A DNA stretch of 41,071 nucleotides, taken from the sequence record OZ035758.1, one strand, 5' to 3'. A program made the position numbers and the translations under genes. Of the stretch, positions 13,001-38,864 are shown in pieces. This stretch comes from Kagunavirus LF7074P1. The notes under the pieces were generated by a model that was not told the DNA's origin, ran no database searches, and saw nothing but the letters and a program-made list of their open reading frames with translations. How positions within the stretch are numbered: position 1 is the stretch's first letter; the number at the start of each line of letters is the position of its first letter.

Positions 13001-13030
13001 TTTAAACCCCTTCATTGTTGGTGTAAGTGA

Positions 13031-13059
13031 ATAGTACCCTATTATATTGGGGTGTGCAA
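13031..13059 (-). promoter_or_regulatory. Sigma70-like promoter P3 (TTGCAC-17-TACTAT) driving the minus-strand cassette
   Basis: Minus strand reads TTGCACaccccaatataatagggTACTATtca, near-identical to promoter P1 at 35039. Confidence 0.6.
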
Positions 13060-25428: not shown

Positions 25429-25716
25429 TTAACTATAATAGCCCGCTATTAGGTCGTCAACCTGTTTAAACGAACCAACGACAAAAACATTTGCACCACG
25501 TTTACGCATCCGCTCGTGCTCTCGTAACTGGTGCGGGTCCGGCTTCGTGTTTTCGTCTTTCTTAACCTCGACGAACCAGATGATGCCACCAGGGAGAATT
25601 ACCAGCAGGTCGGGGGCGCCCGCTCTATTTTCGTACGACAATTTGCGTACGAGGCCTCCCAGGGCCTCGAATCGCTCTTTTGCGTATTTCTGCACGCGCC
25701 CCTCAGGCGTACTCAT
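25429..25716 (-). CDS. VRR-NUC domain nuclease (PD-(D/E)xK)
   Basis: 95 aa; GAPDLLVI...WFVEVKK pattern; RBS GGGAGG. Confidence 0.6.
   Translation of the reverse strand: MSTPEGRVQKYAKERFEALGGLVRKLSYENRAGAPDLLVILPGGIIWFVEVKKDENTKPDPHQLREHERMRKRGANVFVVGSFKQVDDLIAGYYS
25432..25460 (-). promoter_or_regulatory. Sigma70-like promoter P4 (TTGACG-17-TATAGT), internal to replication operon
   Basis: Minus strand TTGACGacctaatagcgggctatTATAGT; shares the conserved core with P5 and P6. Confidence 0.5.
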
Positions 25717-28919: not shown

Positions 28920-28948
28920 ACTATAATAGCTAACTATTCAGGTGTCAA
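28920..28948 (-). promoter_or_regulatory. Sigma70-like promoter P5 (TTGACA-17-TATAGT)
   Basis: Minus strand TTGACAcctgaatagttagctatTATAGT. Confidence 0.6.
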
Positions 28949-28952
28949 CACT

Positions 28953-30224
28953 TTATTCTAAATCGTCTTCACTTACCTGATTCCACTCAGGCCGTTTATC
29001 ATCTGCCGTTGCGACACATGGTGTGCCGTGGTTACGAGTTACGTGTTTCTCCAGCGCAGCCCATAGCTCTGAGCCCTTATGCTGCTTCTCAGCCTCGGTC
29101 GGGGACATTAGGACTTCTTTATGGAGCATTTCGACACCAAGCTCAAATCGAGACAGGGTGTCCATAAGCGCCTGCTTATCTTTCCACGCGCGATTTCCTG
29201 GGCGGCCCTCAACCAGCTTGTACCCCGGCACTTTCTTACCGGAATGCAATGCGGCGGTCATCGCTTTCTCAACCTTGTCGATGTGCTGGCGTAACAGCGG
29301 CAACTTCTCATACTCAACTACGAGTTGCTCCGTCGTCAGTTCCAGCGCAAAGTCGTCTTCCAGTTCTTCCGCCAGTACAGAATTAACCGTCTTTGTACGT
29401 GCGGCACACTGTTCAGAGAACCGGCACCACTGGCAACCATCGACCGACGGTTTAAAGTCCGACGCTTTCAGGTTCTTCTTTCCACGGAAATAAGCATCAA
29501 GCGCTAACAGTGCCCGTTTCTGTGCGAACTTAGCGAACAGTTCCAGACCTTCGACAGAGATGTCCCACTCTGACGCACCCCCTGCGTACGGCTGGAAGAT
29601 GACCAGGCGCACTACTGTGATGTTATAACGTCTCTTGAGTCGGCGATAAACACCGAGAGCGTAAAGCATAAGCTGTTTGTTTTCTTTCGCTTCGACACGA
29701 TGTCGTCCTGTTTTCAGGTCGCCAATAATGAGCATGTGCTCGTCGGTGTTCGCCAGTTCCTGAACGGCAACAATGTCGGCGGTTCCGAATGTCTCAACGC
29801 CTTCGTAGCCTGGATGCAATACCTCAGTAAGATTGACACGCATCTCGAGTTTGGCGTAAGTCGCCACGTCTATAATCGCCTTGCAGTAGTCGGTATACTT
29901 GCGCACCTGCTCAATCATGTCAGCCGTGATTAGTACAGCGCCTTTCATCGGACTAATTAGCGCCTTAATCTGGCCTTTACCCTCGTCCAGCACGTAAGCA
30001 CCGACTTCACGCTCTAACGGCAGCGCAGTGCCTTTGATGTACTGGTTAAGGTGCATCTCAGCTATGGTGTGGCACGCAGTACCTGTAACGGCGGCTTTAC
30101 CAGACGTGTTGGGAATATCTTTTTCACAGGCCAGTGACGCGGCGCAGCTTAGCCACTTTTTAGCGCCTGATGGTGACAGTAAGGCGTGCACATCATTATT
30201 GCCGCCACGTTCTTTTAGAATCAT
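28953..30224 (-). CDS. PD-(D/E)xK nuclease with C-terminal Cys cluster (DUF2800 / Cas4-like exonuclease)
   Basis: 423 aa; N-terminal LSPSGAKKWLSCAASLAC; catalytic-like IIGDLKTG; C-terminal CQWCRFSEQC cluster. Confidence 0.6.
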   Translation of the reverse strand: MILKERGGNNDVHALLSPSGAKKWLSCAASLACEKDIPNTSGKAAVTGTACHTIAEMHLNQYIKGTALPLEREVGAYVLDEGKGQIKALISPMKGAVLITADMIEQVRKYTDYCKAIIDVATYAKLEMRVNLTEVLHPGYEGVETFGTADIVAVQELANTDEHMLIIGDLKTGRHRVEAKENKQLMLYALGVYRRLKRRYNITVVRLVIFQPYAGGASEWDISVEGLELFAKFAQKRALLALDAYFRGKKNLKASDFKPSVDGCQWCRFSEQCAARTKTVNSVLAEELEDDFALELTTEQLVVEYEKLPLLRQHIDKVEKAMTAALHSGKKVPGYKLVEGRPGNRAWKDKQALMDTLSRFELGVEMLHKEVLMSPTEAEKQHKGSELWAALEKHVTRNHGTPCVATADDKRPEWNQVSEDDLE

Positions 30225-30568
30225 CCTAAACTCTCCAAATACAAGTTTAATGCCTGTAGCTGTTCTTCTGTGGGGATGAAAGAATCATCGCGGTGTAAGT
30301 CGCTTAACTGTTGCAACATTCCTGCGAACTGACGTCTTGCGTCAACAGCGACCATGTGATGCTTTTCACTTTTGTATATTAATGTTTTCGGGTAATCCTC
30401 AAGCCTGCCAGACGATTTATTCACGCGGAGCGCGCGAGCTTCGTGCGCAATGTGGATGTACTTTTTGCCGTTTTGTAGCACAGTAGCTACACCGCTGTTC
30501 TTTCTGCGGTCACCGACGGTGTAAACTTTGTCGCCGCTGCGCAAATTAAGCCACCATTTATCAGTCAT
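30221..30568 (-). CDS. Hypothetical protein
   Basis: 116 aa from ATG 30568, coupled (ATGA) to flanking genes. Confidence 0.45.
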   Translation of the reverse strand: MTDKWWLNLRSGDKVYTVGDRRKNSGVATVLQNGKKYIHIAHEARALRVNKSSGRLEDYPKTLIYKSEKHHMVAVDARRQFAGMLQQLSDLHRDDSFIPTEEQLQALNLYLESLG

Positions 30569-30837
30569 ACCCTGTTCTCCCACTGATCAATTAAATGTCG
30601 TGTCTTATGGTCGCAGTGCATAGCCCAGCTGTACATCGGCTCAAAGACATAAAAGTCAGGCTTGGCGAATGTCGTGCGCTTAATCTGCGACACGTGACGG
30701 CCTATATCTTTAGACAGCGGTACTTTGCCTAAGTACGCCATCTCTTCCATCTGGTGTGCACCGGACGGCGCACGCAATAACCATAGCGCCTCTGTGGTAT
30801 CCCGCCGGTCAACGGCGCGGTATAGTTGGTAAATCAT
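30565..30837 (-). CDS. Hypothetical protein
   Basis: 90 aa, RBS gaggg 9 nt upstream. Confidence 0.45.
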   Translation of the reverse strand: MIYQLYRAVDRRDTTEALWLLRAPSGAHQMEEMAYLGKVPLSKDIGRHVSQIKRTTFAKPDFYVFEPMYSWAMHCDHKTRHLIDQWENRV

Positions 30838-30880: not shown

Positions 30881-31390
30881 TTATTCTTCTTCGAAATACT
30901 TGTTCTTGATTGCTGTCAGGCGCTCCAGATACTCAGCCAGGTCTTCGTCTTTAATCGCTGCAATCTTCATCTTCTTACCGGTAAACTCTTCCAGCAGTTC
31001 GTCAGAATCGTCGCACGCGGCATCGCTTGGGCCTTCGTTAATCGCATCGTCGATAGCCTGAATCTGGTCGCGCAGAGACTGGTAATCGACTTCTTCTTTC
31101 TCTTCTTCCGGCTCTGGCGTTGGCTCCTCTACTTTAGCTTTACGCGGCTTGCGTTTCGGCTTCTCTTCTTCCGCAGGTTTAGTGTCAACGAGGTCCTCGC
31201 CTTCGACCGGGATTTCTTTCCCGACGCCAGTGCCTGGGTCGACTTCAAGCACCTCTCCGGTAACCGATACATCTACAAGCATTTCACCTACACACTCAGT
31301 TGACGGCATCGGTCGTTTCGCGCTGTTCGCAGCAATCAGTTCATGCGCAACTACGAAACGTTCCAGTAATACTAAGAATTTCTCTAACAT
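30881..31390 (-). CDS. Highly acidic early protein (candidate DNA mimic / anti-restriction)
   Basis: 169 aa, very Glu/Asp-rich with long acidic runs (EEEKEEVD, DDSDELLEE); first gene after strong promoter P6; RBS GAGGAG. Confidence 0.5.
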   Translation of the reverse strand: MLEKFLVLLERFVVAHELIAANSAKRPMPSTECVGEMLVDVSVTGEVLEVDPGTGVGKEIPVEGEDLVDTKPAEEEKPKRKPRKAKVEEPTPEPEEEKEEVDYQSLRDQIQAIDDAINEGPSDAACDDSDELLEEFTGKKMKIAAIKDEDLAEYLERLTAIKNKYFEEE

Positions 31391-31421
31391 TATTTATTCT
31401 CCTCTCGTTTGGTATGGGCTA

Positions 31422-31450
31422 ACTATAATAGCGAACTATTCACTTGTCAA
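31422..31450 (-). promoter_or_regulatory. Sigma70-like promoter P6 (TTGACA-17-TATAGT), leftward early promoter
   Basis: Minus strand TTGACAagtgaatagttcgctatTATAGT. Confidence 0.65.
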
Positions 31451-31474
31451 TGGGCTTTTCTAAAATAATTAATA

Positions 31475-31483
31475 TGGTACTAT
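31475..31483 (+). promoter_or_regulatory. Extended -10 promoter element (TGgTACTAT) for the XRE regulator gene
   Basis: TGn motif directly upstream of TACTAT; no convincing -35; about 30 nt upstream of ATG 31515. Confidence 0.4.
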
Positions 31484-31514
31484 TCACATATCAACTGACT
31501 AAGGAGTAATTGAC

Positions 31515-31730
31515 ATGCAACCATCTGAACTAGGCATCCGTGTAGAGCAACGCCGTAAAGAACTCGGTATCTCCCAGCGCCATCTGGCTGTCCTGGCCGG
31601 TGTTTCCCAAGGCGCGATTAACCAGCTGGCACTTGGAGTAACTCAGGACGTCCGCCCGGCGACGCTGTTTAAACTGGCGGAAGTGCTGGAAGTAGACGCC
31701 AAGTGGCTGGCGTTCGGTGAAGGGGCTTAA
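31515..31730 (+). CDS. XRE-family helix-turn-helix transcriptional regulator (Cro/CI-like)
   Basis: 71 aa; HTH ISQRHLAVLAGVSQGAINQLALG; RBS AGGAG 8 nt upstream. Confidence 0.7.
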   Translation: MQPSELGIRVEQRRKELGISQRHLAVLAGVSQGAINQLALGVTQDVRPATLFKLAEVLEVDAKWLAFGEGA

Positions 31731-31746
31731 CGCCCCTTTCTTTTTA
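31721..31746. terminator. Bidirectional intrinsic terminator
   Basis: aggggc-ttaac-gcccct hairpin followed by ttcttttt; XRE stop codon lies in the loop; convergent primase gene ends at 31748. Confidence 0.7.
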
Positions 31747-31747
31747 C

Positions 31748-33955
31748 CTATTCCAAATCCTCTTCTGTCACCACCAGCATTTCATTCGGTTCGTATATTG
31801 TCTTCGGTCTTAGTCTATCCCCTATTCTTTCAGGTATACGATACGTTCTCGGTACTACTTCGCCATTAGCATCACAGCCTAGCATTAGTTCACCATCTTT
31901 CAGCATTTTATCAAGATGGGTGTTAGTCACAGAAAAGTCACCGGAACGGGCCACTATCTGCTGCTGAGTAAAACCGCGACCTGTGTCATCTGACTGTTGC
32001 AGGTCTTCCAGTGCCGAAAGTATCGACTCCTTCCTTACTTCATCCCTGCCGCGTTTAACTTCTTCCTTTACTTTTTGTTTACCTTCGTTAGTTAACCCTT
32101 CTTCCCGCTCTTTCTCCTCGTCAGTTTTGAACGGCTCGAAGCCCCACGGCATCAGAACAAGCGCCTTGTGTGGTTCCGGCAGGTCGAGGTTTACGATTGT
32201 GCCGTATTCCTCTGTGCTGCCCAAGAACTCAACAGCACGGTACTCTTTCGGCGGTGGTGCTTCACGGAACTGTACAGACTCAAGTACCATGCCAACCGTT
32301 TTCTGTTGAGGCCCGTGCTTAAATTTCGAGTGGTATACGTTTATCTGACGGTCGGTTGCACGTTCTATTGTCAGTTCCACATCGACACCCGCATACAGCG
32401 CCCCGCTGCCACGGGCTTTCTTTCCGCCCTTCGGTGTATGGTGGACGACGCCCACCGCGGCTTTAGTTGCGTCACGTACTTCTTTAAGGATGGCGATAAC
32501 TTTACCCATGCCGATTGCCGTTGATGAACTGTTCTCGTCGAACTTATCAATCGTCATGGCCAGTGTCTGGTTAAGGGTGTCGAACGCAACCATCCCAATT
32601 GGCTCGTCACCCGCAGTTTCTCGCATTAGCTTAATCAGGCTTTTCAGTTTGCCAACTTCGCCCATATCGATGACATGTACATAATCTTTACCTTCCTCGC
32701 CGTATTTAGCCGCGAGTGCATCAATACGGGTGCGTGTGGCAGCACCGCCCTCACCGTCAATATAGAAATGGTGGCAACGCTGTGTATCAGCGCCTGCAAA
32801 CCGGTACCCGGCGGCGCTCAGGTACATCATACCCAGCGTATAGAATGATTTATATGTGCCGGATTCCCCGACGATGTCCCAGATGCAATCCGACGGCATG
32901 TACCCTTCAACGACGAAATCAGCCTTTACCGGTTCAGGTAACTCGTCATCGTCTTCAAGGTCTTCCAGTGTACAAGTTACAGGCTCCTCGTTCTCTGTGC
33001 GGTGCAGTTCTTCAATCTCTTCATCCGGTAAATCAGGCAGAGCCGCACGAATGCTGTTAATACTGATAGGTTGCTTGTCTACGTTAAGCTCGTCCGGAAG
33101 GCCGCACATACGCAGGGCCAAATGTTGTCGGCGGTTAAGCTCAGTGCAAGCACCGTTGTTTGTGTGCTGGCACACGAAGCGCACTTCTTTACCGTCGAGC
33201 ATGATGCTGGTGGAGCCTTTGCCGGTGTGCAGGTGTTCGTTAGGGCAAGGCACTTCGTACCCGCGACCGGAAGATAAAGCGTCAAGGCCAAGCTCCGCTT
33301 CGCAGAAATGCGCTATATCCGCGTTAAGCCCATGCTCATCGGCAGCAAGGGTCTTAGCTTCACGCTTACGCAACCCCATTTCTTCGGCTTTCTTGATGTA
33401 CCGCTCGGCACGGATAACACGCCCTTCTGTAACCGTTATCTTCGACTCTTTATGCGGCAGGTAGATAAGGCGGTTGCCATCTTCTGTGCAGTGGTCGCGC
33501 AATGCTTCGTCTATTTCTAACTCAGCACAAATAGCACGTTGCACCATCCACGCGTCGTTAGAGTTAAACGGCGTGCGGGCCGGTACAAGAACGCGGAAAG
33601 CGTAGTCACCGTTTTTACACGCGTGCTGGTGCGACGCCGTTGTGTGCAGAATATTGAAGAACGGCGCGTTCTTGAATTTGCGGGTGAGGTCGCGGTACTG
33701 GGTACGGTTTAGATGGTCGAAATCGAACTTAACCACACTGTCTTCCAGAATCGCGTTCTTACGGCGACCGCCAACCGGCGCAATAGCTTTCTGCTTAATC
33801 TTGGCCGCGTCGTACTCTTCCTTAGTCCATGACGGGTCTACGGACAGACGCTTCGATGTATCGCAGACATACTCTACAAACTGCTCCAGTGGCATTTCAC
33901 GGGCTACCGGGTTTTTATCGAAAGTGTTACGCAGCGTTGCAAAAACAATATTCAT
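31748..33955 (-). CDS. Primase-helicase fusion (AEP/PrimPol-type N-terminal domain, Zn-binding region, P-loop helicase C-terminal domain)
   Basis: 735 aa; N-terminal VKFDFDHL (DxD); Cys/His cluster CPNEHLHTGK...CQHTNNGAC; Walker A GESGTYKS. Confidence 0.7.
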   Translation of the reverse strand: MNIVFATLRNTFDKNPVAREMPLEQFVEYVCDTSKRLSVDPSWTKEEYDAAKIKQKAIAPVGGRRKNAILEDSVVKFDFDHLNRTQYRDLTRKFKNAPFFNILHTTASHQHACKNGDYAFRVLVPARTPFNSNDAWMVQRAICAELEIDEALRDHCTEDGNRLIYLPHKESKITVTEGRVIRAERYIKKAEEMGLRKREAKTLAADEHGLNADIAHFCEAELGLDALSSGRGYEVPCPNEHLHTGKGSTSIMLDGKEVRFVCQHTNNGACTELNRRQHLALRMCGLPDELNVDKQPISINSIRAALPDLPDEEIEELHRTENEEPVTCTLEDLEDDDELPEPVKADFVVEGYMPSDCIWDIVGESGTYKSFYTLGMMYLSAAGYRFAGADTQRCHHFYIDGEGGAATRTRIDALAAKYGEEGKDYVHVIDMGEVGKLKSLIKLMRETAGDEPIGMVAFDTLNQTLAMTIDKFDENSSSTAIGMGKVIAILKEVRDATKAAVGVVHHTPKGGKKARGSGALYAGVDVELTIERATDRQINVYHSKFKHGPQQKTVGMVLESVQFREAPPPKEYRAVEFLGSTEEYGTIVNLDLPEPHKALVLMPWGFEPFKTDEEKEREEGLTNEGKQKVKEEVKRGRDEVRKESILSALEDLQQSDDTGRGFTQQQIVARSGDFSVTNTHLDKMLKDGELMLGCDANGEVVPRTYRIPERIGDRLRPKTIYEPNEMLVVTEEDLE

Positions 33956-34149: not shown

Positions 34150-34440
34150 TTACCGTTTAGCCAACTCTTCCAGCAAATTTTTATACTCTTCAAAATATTC
34201 CTCGACCAAATCATCGCCGAAATAGAAGTCGATATACTCGAGATTATCTCTTACGTTAAGCGACGCAGACATGGTGCTTAGTTGGCGTAAGCTAATTAGC
34301 TTCATTTCTGTTTCTACACAGAAAGGCCGGTAGGTATCGAGGTGGCAAGAGATGTTGAAGCATAAAGCGAACTCTCCCGCCACGGAGTGAACCATATACA
34401 CTTCGTTTTCTGCTTTATTGTGGAAAATTACACCTTTCAT
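34150..34440 (-). CDS. Hypothetical protein
   Basis: 96-aa acidic ORF coupled to upstream HTH gene (ATGA). Confidence 0.45.
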   Translation of the reverse strand: MKGVIFHNKAENEVYMVHSVAGEFALCFNISCHLDTYRPFCVETEMKLISLRQLSTMSASLNVRDNLEYIDFYFGDDLVEEYFEEYKNLLEELAKR

Positions 34441-34619
34441 TTCACATTCTCCTTAATCCATTCTTCAACTTTATTACGGTCAAATGTACCTGGTAAACGG
34501 CGACCCATAACCTTAATACAACAATCAGGGAATTTACCACTGCGCAACCAGTTATTAATTGTCTGACGTGTTACCCCAATACGCTCGGCTACTTCATTCT
34601 GGGTCATGTAATGTTGCAT
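34437..34619 (-). CDS. Small HTH DNA-binding protein (AlpA/excisionase-like fold suggested)
   Basis: 60 aa from ATG 34619 (RBS AGGAG 8 nt upstream); MTQNEVAERIGVTRQTINNWLRSGKFP. Confidence 0.5.
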   Translation of the reverse strand: MQHYMTQNEVAERIGVTRQTINNWLRSGKFPDCCIKVMGRRLPGTFDRNKVEEWIKENVK

Positions 34620-34716: not shown

Positions 34717-34746
34717 TTGAAAGTTCTTGACACATGTTTGTATAAT
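34717..34746 (+). promoter_or_regulatory. Candidate rightward sigma70 promoter (TTGAAA-18-TATAAT)
   Basis: Consensus -10 TATAAT at 34741-34746; reads into a non-coding region containing a long hairpin. Confidence 0.4.
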
Positions 34747-34773
34747 GGTTTTGGGACTTGTATATATTACGGA

Positions 34774-34805
34774 GTTGACGAACCCTCCCTGAGGGATTCG
34801 TCAAC
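34774..34805 (+). other. Long perfect inverted repeat / stem-loop (GTTGACGAACCCTC-CCT-GAGGGATTCGTCAAC)
   Basis: ~14-bp perfect stem read directly from sequence; about 30 nt downstream of the candidate promoter at 34717. Confidence 0.7.
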
Positions 34806-34946
34806 CCCTCCCAGACAGCTGAGATGCTTGTTTTAGGGTTTAAGGATAAGTGTATCTAAATCTCATTTAAAGAAGTAACCCACTGAAATATCTACTGTTT
34901 CTTAATGTGCCGTAGATTCGCAACCGTAAAAATGTAACGATTATTG

Positions 34947-34972
34947 GGCAGGCTTAAGGCCTGCCCTTTAGT
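34947..34972 (+). terminator. Weak terminator-like hairpin
   Basis: gggcaggc-ttaag-gcctgccc stem followed by ttt. Confidence 0.35.
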
Positions 34973-35038
34973 TACCAAGTAATAAGAATAAAGGCACAAC
35001 CTTCCCCGAAGAATCACAACGGCAACGTAACTAATCTC

Positions 35039-35067
35039 TTGCACACCCCAACATAATAGGATACTAT
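35039..35067 (+). promoter_or_regulatory. Sigma70-like promoter P1 (TTGCAC-17-TACTAT), rightward early promoter
   Basis: TTGCACaccccaacataataggaTACTAT; conserved leader ...aaacgagacagaggag... to ATG 35102. Confidence 0.65.
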
Positions 35068-35101
35068 TCACTTATCGAAACGAGACAGAGGAGTGAGGGT
35101 T

Positions 35102-35284
35102 ATGTTTAAGAATGGTCAGTTGGTGAAAACAAAGCGCAGCCGGCAACACGTAATAGTTACCAAAGACGAGGATGAATATGGTGTTGTCGCCGTATTTAGC
35201 CTTATACGGAGGAAACATGGTTATGTTCGTCACGATAATTTAGAACTCATCGGCAACAATTTTAAATTCAAAGGGGCGAAGTGA
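35102..35284 (+). CDS. Hypothetical early protein (60 aa)
   Basis: ATG 8 nt after GAGGAG. Confidence 0.45.
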   Translation: MFKNGQLVKTKRSRQHVIVTKDEDEYGVVAVFSLIRRKHGYVRHDNLELIGNNFKFKGAK

Positions 35285-36282: not shown

Positions 36283-36311
36283 TTGCACACTAAGATAGAA
36301 TAGGCTACTAT
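36283..36311 (+). promoter_or_regulatory. Sigma70-like promoter P2 (TTGCAC-17-TACTAT)
   Basis: TTGCACactaagatagaataggcTACTAT; conserved leader ...aaacgagaggggag... to ATG 36343. Confidence 0.65.
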
Positions 36312-36342
36312 TCATTTACACAAACGAGAGGGGAGACAGAAT

Positions 36343-38813: not shown

Positions 38814-38835
38814 ATCTATTTTCTGCAATGACTAG

Positions 38836-38864
38836 TTGACTATTATCCTAGACCCTACTATATT
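38836..38864 (+). promoter_or_regulatory. Sigma70-like promoter P8 (TTGACT-17-TATATT)
   Basis: TTGACTattatcctagaccctacTATATT; leader contains the conserved ACGAGA before the RBS. Confidence 0.55.

What the first reader, a model, noticed from the sequence alone, without database searches (positions are those of the whole stretch)
31391..31746. Isolated Cro-like XRE regulator in a divergent promoter region carrying tandem 16-bp direct repeats
The only clear XRE-family HTH gene is transcribed alone, opposite to the leftward early operon, and terminates at a bidirectional hairpin. The divergent region contains two copies of ACTATTCAC-N-T-N-TCAA (about 31434 and 31478) that overlap the -35 of P6 and the -10 of the XRE promoter. 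This is the layout of an autoregulatory switch. No CI-like repressor or integrase is present, so it may time the early-to-late transition rather than control lysogeny.
Basis: partly seen in the sequence, partly recalled or inferred. Interest (0 to 1): 0.4.

Follow-up and report, generated by a model that had tools for sequence, protein, structure and literature searches.

The report
Cro-like repressor with genome-wide operators
A virulent E. coli phage (Kagunavirus) keeps a small phage-434-Cro-like DNA-binding protein, and the two "direct repeats" next to its gene are two of at least seven copies of a 14-bp palindrome that sits inside the phage's non-structural promoters, so this is probably a Cro-type shut-off regulon and not a local switch; it is interesting but of a known kind.

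Summary
The window is the whole genome of Kagunavirus LF7074P1 (Guernseyvirinae, virulent siphovirus).

**What is confirmed**
- The 71-aa gene at 31515..31730 is real. Its best solved relative is phage 434 Cro.
- The two 16-bp repeats are real, at 31435-31450 and 31479-31494, and are not chance.

**What the repeats are**
- They are the right halves of longer repeats whose core is a 14-bp palindrome, AATAG-N4-CTATT.
- The palindrome is perfect at 13030, 25437, 28925, 31427, 35055 and 36299, and has one mismatch at 31471.
- An unbiased screen ranks it the top gapped palindrome in three genomes of two genera.
- Every copy lies inside a sigma-70-like promoter. O1 lies between -35 and -10 of the near-consensus leftward promoter. 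O2 covers the -10 of the regulator's own promoter.

**Comparative evidence**
- Arms are conserved across relatives and the central N4 varies.
- Related lineages with different recognition helices carry variant half-sites.

**Most likely mechanism (inferred)**
- A dimer represses the early and replication promoters, and represses its own promoter more weakly.

**Prior knowledge and corrections**
- Published genome notes listed the same motif as "phage promoters" and did not link it to this protein.
- The hairpin is not bidirectional.
- A second HTH protein (HTH_17) exists at 34437..34619.
- Binding is untested.

The parts
31515..31730 (+). 71-aa XRE/HTH_3 regulator, 434-Cro-like (five helices; recognition helix about residues 31-39, VSQGAINQL)
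   Evidence: 434 Cro E 5.5e-7, full length; 2cro TM 0.73/0.79
31501..31506 (+). Shine-Dalgarno AAGGAG of the regulator gene
   Evidence: invariant in the alignment of 41 distinct upstream regions
31427..31440 (.). O1: perfect palindrome AATAGCGAACTATT, at about -25..-12 of the leftward promoter
   Evidence: arms conserved, centre variable
31471..31484 (.). O2: AATATGGTACTATT (one mismatch), covering the -10 of the regulator's own promoter; 44 bp centre-to-centre from O1
31422..31450 (-). leftward sigma-70-like promoter TTGACA-17-TATAGT (11/12) for 30881..31390 and downstream genes
31475..31483 (+). extended -10 TGgTACTAT, presumptive promoter of the regulator gene (Jerseyvirus has TTGCAC-17-TACTAT at the same place)
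   Evidence: sequence reading; inference
31470..31494 (+). direct repeat copy 2 (25 nt; contains the 16-mer at 31479-31494)
31719..31748 (+). intrinsic terminator hairpin (stop codon in the loop) plus T-run; + strand only
28925..28938 (.). perfect palindrome inside leftward promoter TTGACA-17-TATAGT (28948-28920), upstream of the ssDNA-binding and DNA polymerase genes
25437..25450 (.). perfect palindrome inside leftward promoter TTGACG-17-TATAGT (25460-25432), upstream of the helicase gene
13030..13043 (.). perfect palindrome in a divergent intergenic region; leftward TTGCAC-17-TACTAT type promoter
35055..35068 (.). perfect palindrome over the -10 of rightward promoter TTGCAC-17-TACTAT, upstream of the gene starting at 35103; also contains the 16-mer with one mismatch
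36299..36312 (.). perfect palindrome over the -10 of rightward promoter TTGCAC-17-TACTAT
38831..38844 (.). one-mismatch palindrome overlapping the -35 of TTGACT-17-TATATT (10/12); possible weaker site
34437..34619 (-). second DNA-binding candidate: 60-aa HTH_17 / excisionase-like protein (phrog_66); a rival binder, not shown to be part of the system

Best explanation
The gene encodes a phage-434-Cro-type homodimeric repressor. Its likely operators are 14-bp palindromes, AATAG-N4-CTATT: 5-bp contacted arms and a 4-bp centre that is not read.

Seven good copies lie in the core of the phage's sigma-70-type promoters for non-structural genes. These are the three leftward replication-module promoters, the promoter of the 11-13 kb leftward block, two rightward small-gene promoters, and the regulator's own promoter.

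Proposed sequence of events:
1. The host RNA polymerase fires these promoters early.
2. The regulator accumulates and occupies the perfect operators. O1 sits between -35 and -10 of the 31450->31422 promoter. Other operators sit over the -10.
3. This turns down early and replication transcription.
4. At higher concentration the regulator occupies the mismatched O2 over its own -10, which is negative autoregulation.

This is a Cro-like shut-off in a phage that has no CI and no integrase.

Shown here: the fold and family, the motif with its statistics and its conservation, and its position in promoter-like sequences. Inferred: that this protein binds the motif, that binding represses, and the timing.
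For: **Protein.**
- The best PDB match by sequence is 434 Cro: 71 aa against 71 aa, E 5.5e-7.
- The best match by predicted fold is also 434 Cro, 2cro, TM 0.73/0.79. P22 c2 is also hit.
- 434 operators are 14 bp with a centre that is not contacted. This is established knowledge.

**Motif statistics.**
- AATAG-N4-CTATT gives 11 hits at up to 1 mismatch against 0.94 expected. None of 100 shuffles reached 11.
- In an unbiased screen of all 5-mer arms with gaps of 0-10, it is the top gapped palindrome. This holds independently in the window, in fBC-Eco01 and in Jerseyvirus SETP7, at syntenic positions.

**Position in promoters.**
- Three of the four best - strand sigma-70 matches in the genome carry a perfect copy in the same register.
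- The other perfect copies overlap a TACTAT -10.

**Conservation.**
- In 41 distinct upstream regions the arms are conserved, with one arm substitution in fBC-Eco01.
- The central N4 and the adjacent spacer vary in sequence, and the spacer also varies in length.

**Own-promoter site is the imperfect one.** This holds in Kagunavirus (1 mismatch), Jerseyvirus (2) and Cornellvirus.

**Half-sites differ between HTH lineages.**
- Kagunavirus and Jerseyvirus genomes carry 5-7 perfect AATAG..CTATT and none of the variants.
- Cornellvirus has no AATAG..CTATT. It has AATAC..CTAAT and ATTAG..GTAAT.
- The L049/L106 lineage has AATAC..GTATT.

**The other HTH candidate is absent from Cornellvirus.** tblastn does not find HTH_17 in Cornellvirus genomes that keep the XRE gene and a motif variant.

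**Ancestral layout.** In Cornellvirus and L049 the gene is the first gene of the rightward helicase-primase operon, divergent from the leftward genes, like lambda PR-cro-replication.
Against: - No binding data exist, and no transcript maps exist for any Guernseyvirinae. Searches of the held library found none.
- Kagunavirus and Jerseyvirus recognition helices differ at 4 of 8 positions (SQGAINQL against SQSLITHL) yet share the same arms.
- A contig with a Jersey-type helix (L087) has only 8/10 matches at two syntenic sites, and a different palindrome at the O1 position.
- The Cornellvirus motif is not a strict palindrome.
- Variation by lineage also follows phylogeny, so it does not single out this protein.
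- Flanks are shared between copies, as is the TTGCRC-ACCCCAAYAT cassette. Part of the repetition may therefore be common descent of promoter cassettes and not selection for binding.
Confidence: 0.6

Rival explanations
1. The palindromes are operators for a different factor: the 60-aa HTH_17 / excisionase-like protein (34437..34619) or a host regulator. In this reading the XRE protein has another target or role.
For: - A second HTH protein is encoded at the head of the leftward helicase-primase operon.
- It is conserved in Kagunavirus and Jerseyvirus, the two genera that share the exact AATAG..CTATT motif despite different XRE recognition helices.
- It is called a marker of Jerseyvirus in PMC9409062.
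Against: - tblastn does not detect it in the two complete Cornellvirus genomes, which still have the XRE gene and a related motif.
- By established knowledge, excisionase/HTH_17 proteins usually bind direct repeats as monomers, not 5-N4-5 palindromes.
- Two motif copies bracket the XRE gene's own promoter region.
Confidence: 0.15
2. The repeats are only shared promoter cassettes (the 'phage promoters' of published genome notes). They would have spread by duplication and been kept because they are good promoters, with no repressor bound.
For: - PHIRE found the same consensus, tgAATAGTa-ccTATTat-T, seven times in fBC-Eco01 and called them phage promoters (PMC9825357; annotation).
- Flanks beyond the palindrome are shared (CTATTCAC, TTGCRC-ACCCCAAYAT).
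- The cassette travels with morons, accessory genes inserted in the structural region.
Against: - No RNA polymerase gene is annotated in the relatives.
- The palindrome occurs in two different registers relative to the -35/-10 hexamers: -25..-12 and -19..-6. In Cornellvirus the register shifts by about 3 nt.
- Dyad symmetry with a free 4-bp centre is not a property of sigma-70 promoter elements.
Confidence: 0.15
3. The protein is a true immunity-type repressor. It would allow a quiescent carrier or episomal state, or exclude superinfecting relatives, and would not be a lytic-cycle timer.
For: - Operators sit on essentially every non-structural promoter.
- A circular 44,086-bp 'plasmid' from a blood isolate is a Kagunavirus genome.
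Against: - It is a single such record among 72,556 plasmids.
- No copy is integrated in 5,426 complete E. coli genomes.
- The protein has no C-terminal oligomerisation or S24 domain (71 aa).
- The group is described as strictly virulent (PMC9409062; bioRxiv 10.1101/2024.09.12.612763).
Confidence: 0.07

Closest known systems
Phage 434 Cro (PDB 2CRO/3CRO) and its 14-bp operators
   Same: - Same length (71 aa), same five-helix XRE fold, about 40% identity.
- The Gln at the first exposed position of the recognition helix is invariant.
- The candidate operator is 14 bp, has dyad symmetry, starts with A and ends with T, and has a variable 4-bp centre.
- The sites overlap promoters.
- In Cornellvirus the gene is the first gene of the operon that carries the replication genes.
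   Different: - No partner CI gene and no OR1-OR2-OR3 triplet.
- The arms are AATAG, not ACAA.
- There are two sites 44 bp apart at its own locus, plus at least five dispersed sites.
- The host phage is virulent.
- In Kagunavirus and Jerseyvirus the gene is a lone + strand island that converges on the helicase-primase gene.
Phage P22 c2 repressor N-terminal domain and operators (ATTTAAG-N4-CTTAAAT; PDB 2R1J/3JXB)
   Same: - XRE fold.
- Operator arms flank a 4-bp centre, with G/C as the innermost arm base. This rests on my own knowledge of the P22 operators.
   Different: c2 has a C-terminal dimerisation and cleavage domain and maintains lysogeny. The protein here has only the DNA-binding domain.
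Cro-like regulators kept by virulent Streptococcus thermophilus phages
   Same: A Cro-like gene without integrase in lytic phages, read as descent from temperate ancestors (PMC5338259).
   Different: Unrelated phage group. No dispersed operator set is described in that source.
Mycobacteriophage L5 gp71 repressor and its dispersed 'stoperator' sites (own knowledge, not checked here)
   Same: One small phage repressor has many sites spread over the genome.
   Different: The L5 sites are asymmetric 13-mers. They work in one orientation inside transcribed regions, and the repressor maintains lysogeny. The sites here are palindromes inside promoter cores of a virulent phage.
Restriction-modification controller (C) proteins such as C.AhdI and C.BclI
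   Same: Small XRE dimers of similar fold that autoregulate through paired palindromic boxes at their own promoter.
   Different: No restriction or modification genes are adjacent. The operator position over the -10 and the spacer does not fit the activating geometry of C-boxes.

Membership tests
XRE / HTH_3 (Pfam PF01381) | Score above the Pfam gathering cut-off over the whole HTH domain | tested here: met
   44.2 bits against a cut-off of 23, residues 11-65
434 Cro-type single-domain repressors | About 70-aa protein made only of the five-helix DNA-binding domain, with 434 Cro or 434 repressor as the closest solved structure | tested here: met
   phmmer against PDB: 434 Cro E 5.5e-7, residues 6-68. 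Model pLDDT 79.8, five helices. Foldseek top hit 2cro.
434 Cro-type single-domain repressors | Binds 14-bp dyad-symmetric operators as a dimer | not testable with these tools
   A matching 14-bp palindrome family exists, but binding was not measured.
434 Cro-type single-domain repressors | Sits in an immunity region next to a divergent cI gene with tandem OR1-3 operators | tested here: not met
   The profile search of all 592 ORFs finds no second XRE protein. The neighbours are a 169-aa acidic protein and the helicase-primase. There are two sites 44 bp apart, not a triplet.
Lambda Cro family (Pfam Cro) | Match to the lambda Cro fold or family | tested here: not met
   The Pfam scan returns only HTH_3, HTH_19 and HTH_31.
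CI/LexA-type cleavable repressors | C-terminal S24 peptidase or oligomerisation domain | tested here: not met
   71 aa in total; no such domain.
XRE antitoxins (HipB/HigA type) | Co-transcribed adjacent toxin gene | tested here: not met
   The gene is monocistronic between its own promoter and terminator. Both neighbours are on the other strand.
R-M controller C-proteins | Adjacent restriction and methylase genes | tested here: not met
   None in the neighbourhood and none in the annotated relatives.

The most novel reading that the evidence does not exclude
The regulator is a master silencer able to shut every non-structural promoter at once. This would give these 'strictly virulent' Guernseyvirinae a reversible quiescent episomal (carrier) state without CI or integrase. 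The circular Kagunavirus 'plasmid' found in a blood isolate would be an instance.
Probability: 0.07. Interest if true: 0.7.

Novelty: new member of a known kind. Interest (0 to 1): 0.35.

Why it matters
Kagunavirus and Jerseyvirus phages are widely isolated for therapy and biocontrol and are used as engineering chassis. Their gene regulation is nevertheless uncharacterised.

- Linking the routinely annotated 'transcriptional repressor' to a defined set of 7-10 promoter-embedded palindromes gives a concrete, cheaply testable regulon. It also yields a set of portable, probably repressible promoter cassettes.
- It corrects a published reading of the motif as promoters for a phage RNA polymerase.
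- It adds a case of a Cro-type protein retained without CI in a virulent lineage.
- The Cornellvirus layout suggests descent from a lambdoid-style PL/PR-cro-replication arrangement.

Tried and rejected
- **Rfam scan of the whole window:** no family.
- **Full-library phmmer with the protein:** only generic XRE hits, dominated by multi-HTH proteins. One close cluster representative. Not informative about function.
- **Word-index homologue search:** only relatives of at least 77% identity, on about 40-45 kb phage contigs.
- **Prophage copies in E. coli genomes:** none. The only hit is a CRISPR spacer.
- **Strict 5-N4-5 palindrome screen with one mismatch:** swamped by GC-rich coding words, and it failed to define the Cornellvirus motif. 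The motif was recovered only by reading intergenic regions and syntenic sites.
- **One-residue recognition code:** I tried to link recognition-helix residues to half-site bases across lineages (Kagunavirus, Jerseyvirus, Cornellvirus, L049/L106, L101, L087). The variants are lineage-specific but no consistent code emerges, and L087 is an outlier.
- **Second leftward promoter in repeat copy 2 (TTGATA-18-AATTAT):** it matches only 9 of 12 and its -35 is not conserved in Jerseyvirus, so I do not count it.
- **Host ArgR or Fur boxes as an explanation:** considered from memory and rejected, because the spacing and inner arm bases do not fit. Not tested.
- **Literature:** no transcriptomic or binding study of any Guernseyvirinae regulator in the held library.

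Full report
**Identity of the window.** The 1.5 kb around the finding is 100% identical to Kagunavirus LF7074P1 (41,072 bp). It is 86-97% identical to many Escherichia Kagunavirus phages, and 445 phage records match in all, mostly Salmonella Jerseyvirus. The window is therefore a whole genome of a Guernseyvirinae siphovirus. This group is described as strictly virulent (PMC9409062; bioRxiv 10.1101/2024.09.12.612763).

**The observation.**
- The ORF at 31515..31730 (+) encodes 71 aa and follows a good RBS. It matches Pfam HTH_3 (E 2e-11).
- A profile of this protein type, run against all 592 stop-to-stop ORFs of at least 35 aa, hits only this ORF strongly. The next hit (E 0.0017) is a 60-aa HTH_17 / excisionase-like protein at 34437..34619.
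- The two 16-mers are at 31435-31450 and 31479-31494, 44 bp apart, and extend to 25-nt repeats.
- The 16-mer pattern occurs four times in the genome at up to 2 mismatches, against 0.22 expected.
- The gene is a lone + strand island. Both neighbours are on the - strand: a 169-aa acidic protein at 30881..31390 and the helicase-primase at 31748..33955.
- The hairpin at 31719-31739 has a T-run only on the + strand. Leftward transcription of the helicase-primase gene probably reads through, antisense to the regulator gene. This last point is inference.

**What the repeats are.**
- The left part of each 25-nt repeat plus the ACTATT of the 16-mer forms a 14-bp palindrome, AATAG-N4-CTATT.
- It is perfect at 13030, 25437, 28925, 31427 (O1), 35055 and 36299. 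It has one mismatch at 31471 (O2) and at four further places. That is 11 hits against 0.94 expected.
- An unbiased count of all 5-mer arms with gaps of 0-10 ranks AATAG/4 first in the window (6 copies), in fBC-Eco01 (7) and in Jerseyvirus SETP7 (5, as TAATAG-N4-CTATTA). The positions are syntenic.
- The fBC-Eco01 paper reported the same consensus (tgAATAGTa-ccTATTat-T) as seven PHIRE 'phage promoters' used by a phage RNA polymerase (PMC9825357). The annotated relatives list no RNA polymerase gene, and the paper did not link the motif to the HTH protein.

**Relation to promoters.**
- Class A, on the - strand: the sites at 31427, 28925 and 25437 lie in TTGAC[A/G]-17-TATAGT promoters matching 10-11 of 12. 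The palindrome occupies about -25..-12. These are three of the four best - strand promoter matches in the genome.
- Class B: the sites at 13030 (leftward), 35055 and 36299 (rightward) lie in TTGCAC-17-TACTAT promoters. The palindrome spans about -19..-6.
- O2 has the class B geometry. TACTAT (31478-31483) is preceded by TGg, an extended -10, in Kagunavirus. Jerseyvirus has TTGCAC-17-TACTAT at the same place.
- In fBC-Eco01 the class B cassette also drives two - strand morons, accessory genes inserted in the structural region.
- No perfect copy precedes a structural gene.
- The strongest + strand promoter (34717-34746) has no copy.

**Conservation.**
- In 41 distinct upstream regions from Kagunavirus and Jerseyvirus, the conserved blocks are:
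  - the leftward -10 with its leader;
  - the right arms of O1 and O2;
  - the RBS.
- Within Kagunavirus both O1 arms are conserved, with one arm substitution in fBC-Eco01.
- By contrast, the central N4 shows five variants, and the segment between O1 and the -35 varies in sequence and in length by one base.
- The site at the regulator's own promoter is always the imperfect one: 1 mismatch in Kagunavirus, 2 in Jerseyvirus, and imperfect in Cornellvirus.

**The protein.**
- Its best solved relative by sequence is 434 Cro: 71 aa, E 5.5e-7 over residues 6-68. Next come the 434 repressor DNA-binding domain and, weakly, P22 c2.
- The AlphaFold2 model has pLDDT 79.8 and five helices. It hits 2cro first, with TM 0.73/0.79.
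- The Gln at the start of the recognition helix is invariant in all lineages aligned.
- It is established knowledge that 434 Cro and 434 repressor bind 14-bp operators with contacted outer bases and a centre that is not contacted. The motif here has that architecture.

**Does the motif track the protein?** Perfect-copy counts are.

| Lineage | Recognition helix | Motif |
|---|---|---|
| Kagunavirus | SQGAINQ | 5-7 perfect AATAG..CTATT, none of the variants |
| Jerseyvirus | SQSLITH | 5 perfect AATAG..CTATT, none of the variants |
| Cornellvirus | TQSAISH | no AATAG..CTATT; AATAC..CTAAT and ATTAG..GTAAT, roughly TAWTAS-N4-STAATA |
| L049/L106 | TQGGIGH | AATAC..GTATT, with an AATAG/GTATT hybrid at O1 in L106 |

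- The HTH_17 protein is found by tblastn in Kagunavirus and Jerseyvirus but not in the two complete Cornellvirus genomes. The XRE gene is present in all of them.
- Two points count against the link. Kagunavirus and Jerseyvirus share the arms although their helices differ. Contig L087 has a Jersey-type helix but only 8/10 matches at two syntenic sites, and an unrelated palindrome (CCCTAC-GAC-GTAGGG) at the O1 position.
- Lineage-specific variation is also what phylogeny alone would give. The association is therefore supportive, not decisive.

**Layout in relatives.** In Cornellvirus and L049 the regulator is the first gene of a rightward operon that continues into the helicase-primase. That operon is divergent from the leftward replication genes. 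This is the lambda PR-cro-O-P arrangement without cI. In Kagunavirus and Jerseyvirus the helicase-primase block is inverted, which leaves the regulator as an island.

**Mechanism proposed.** The host polymerase fires the operator-bearing promoters early. The regulator accumulates, fills the perfect operators and turns down early and replication transcription. It then limits itself through the weaker O2. I put this at about 0.6. The rivals are:
- another binder, HTH_17 or a host factor (0.15);
- promoter cassettes with no repressor (0.15);
- a true immunity or carrier-state repressor (0.07).

**Comparison with what is known.** The fold and the inferred operator type are those of 434 Cro. The immunity-region context that defines lambdoid Cro is not met: there is no cI and no OR triplet. 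Virulent phages that keep cro-like genes are already described (PMC5338259). The gene is already annotated as a repressor in relatives, and the motif has been published under another name. I file this as a new member of a known kind, with a dispersed regulon as its distinctive trait.

**Verdict.** Interest is 0.35.

Noticed in passing
window 34717-34975 (+): A near-consensus promoter (TTGAAA-18-TATAAT, 11/12) has no palindrome. It is followed by about 220 nt with no credible ORF and then an intrinsic terminator (34946-34966). The RNA folds at -70.1 kcal/mol against -50.2 +/- 4.4 for shuffles (z -4.5), and there is no Rfam match. fBC-Eco01 has a promoter and a terminator annotated at the syntenic place. 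This is a candidate phage non-coding RNA just upstream of the 35055 operator-bearing promoter.
   Followed up: partly
window 31678-31712 (inside the regulator gene); L085 1501-1535: The type I-E CRISPR array of E. coli 2017.09.02CC (NZ_AP025214.2) contains a 35-nt stretch 100% identical to the regulator gene. It lies next to cas1e and cas2e.
   Followed up: partly
L086 (CP088689.1, 44,086-bp circular 'plasmid pC16EC0033-2'): A record deposited as a plasmid of a human blood E. coli isolate is a Kagunavirus genome, about 93% identical over the region and with the same gene order. It may reflect a carrier state or carry-over of phage in the culture.
   Followed up: partly
window 34437-34619 (-): A 60-aa HTH_17 / excisionase-like protein (phrog_66) sits at the head of the leftward helicase-primase operon. 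It is present in Kagunavirus and Jerseyvirus but not detected in Cornellvirus. PMC9409062 notes it as a marker of Jerseyvirus although these phages have no integrase.
   Followed up: partly
L003 14353-17001, L004 9779-12685, L049 2507-5145 against window 31515-33955: The helicase-primase block is inverted in Kagunavirus and Jerseyvirus relative to Cornellvirus and the L049 lineage. In the latter two the regulator and the helicase-primase are co-directional.
   Followed up: partly
L002 3919 and 6063 (fBC-Eco01): A complete cassette, TTGCRC-ACCCCAAYAT-AATAGG-NN-TACTATTCA, then an RBS and ATG, precedes two - strand morons inserted in the structural gene region. The promoter/operator unit appears to move together with accessory genes.
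   Followed up: no
L087 3163-3295 and 724-815: A Logan contig of a further lineage has a Jersey-type recognition helix. It carries ACTAG-N4-CGATT at two syntenic sites and a different 15-bp palindrome, CCCTAC-GAC-GTAGGG, in the spacer of the leftward promoter.
   Followed up: partly
window 30221-30583 (-): The 120-aa protein two genes downstream of the leftward promoter nearly reaches the Pfam cut-off for Phage_ProQ_C_like (26.8 against 27 bits). It may be an RNA-binding protein.
   Followed up: no
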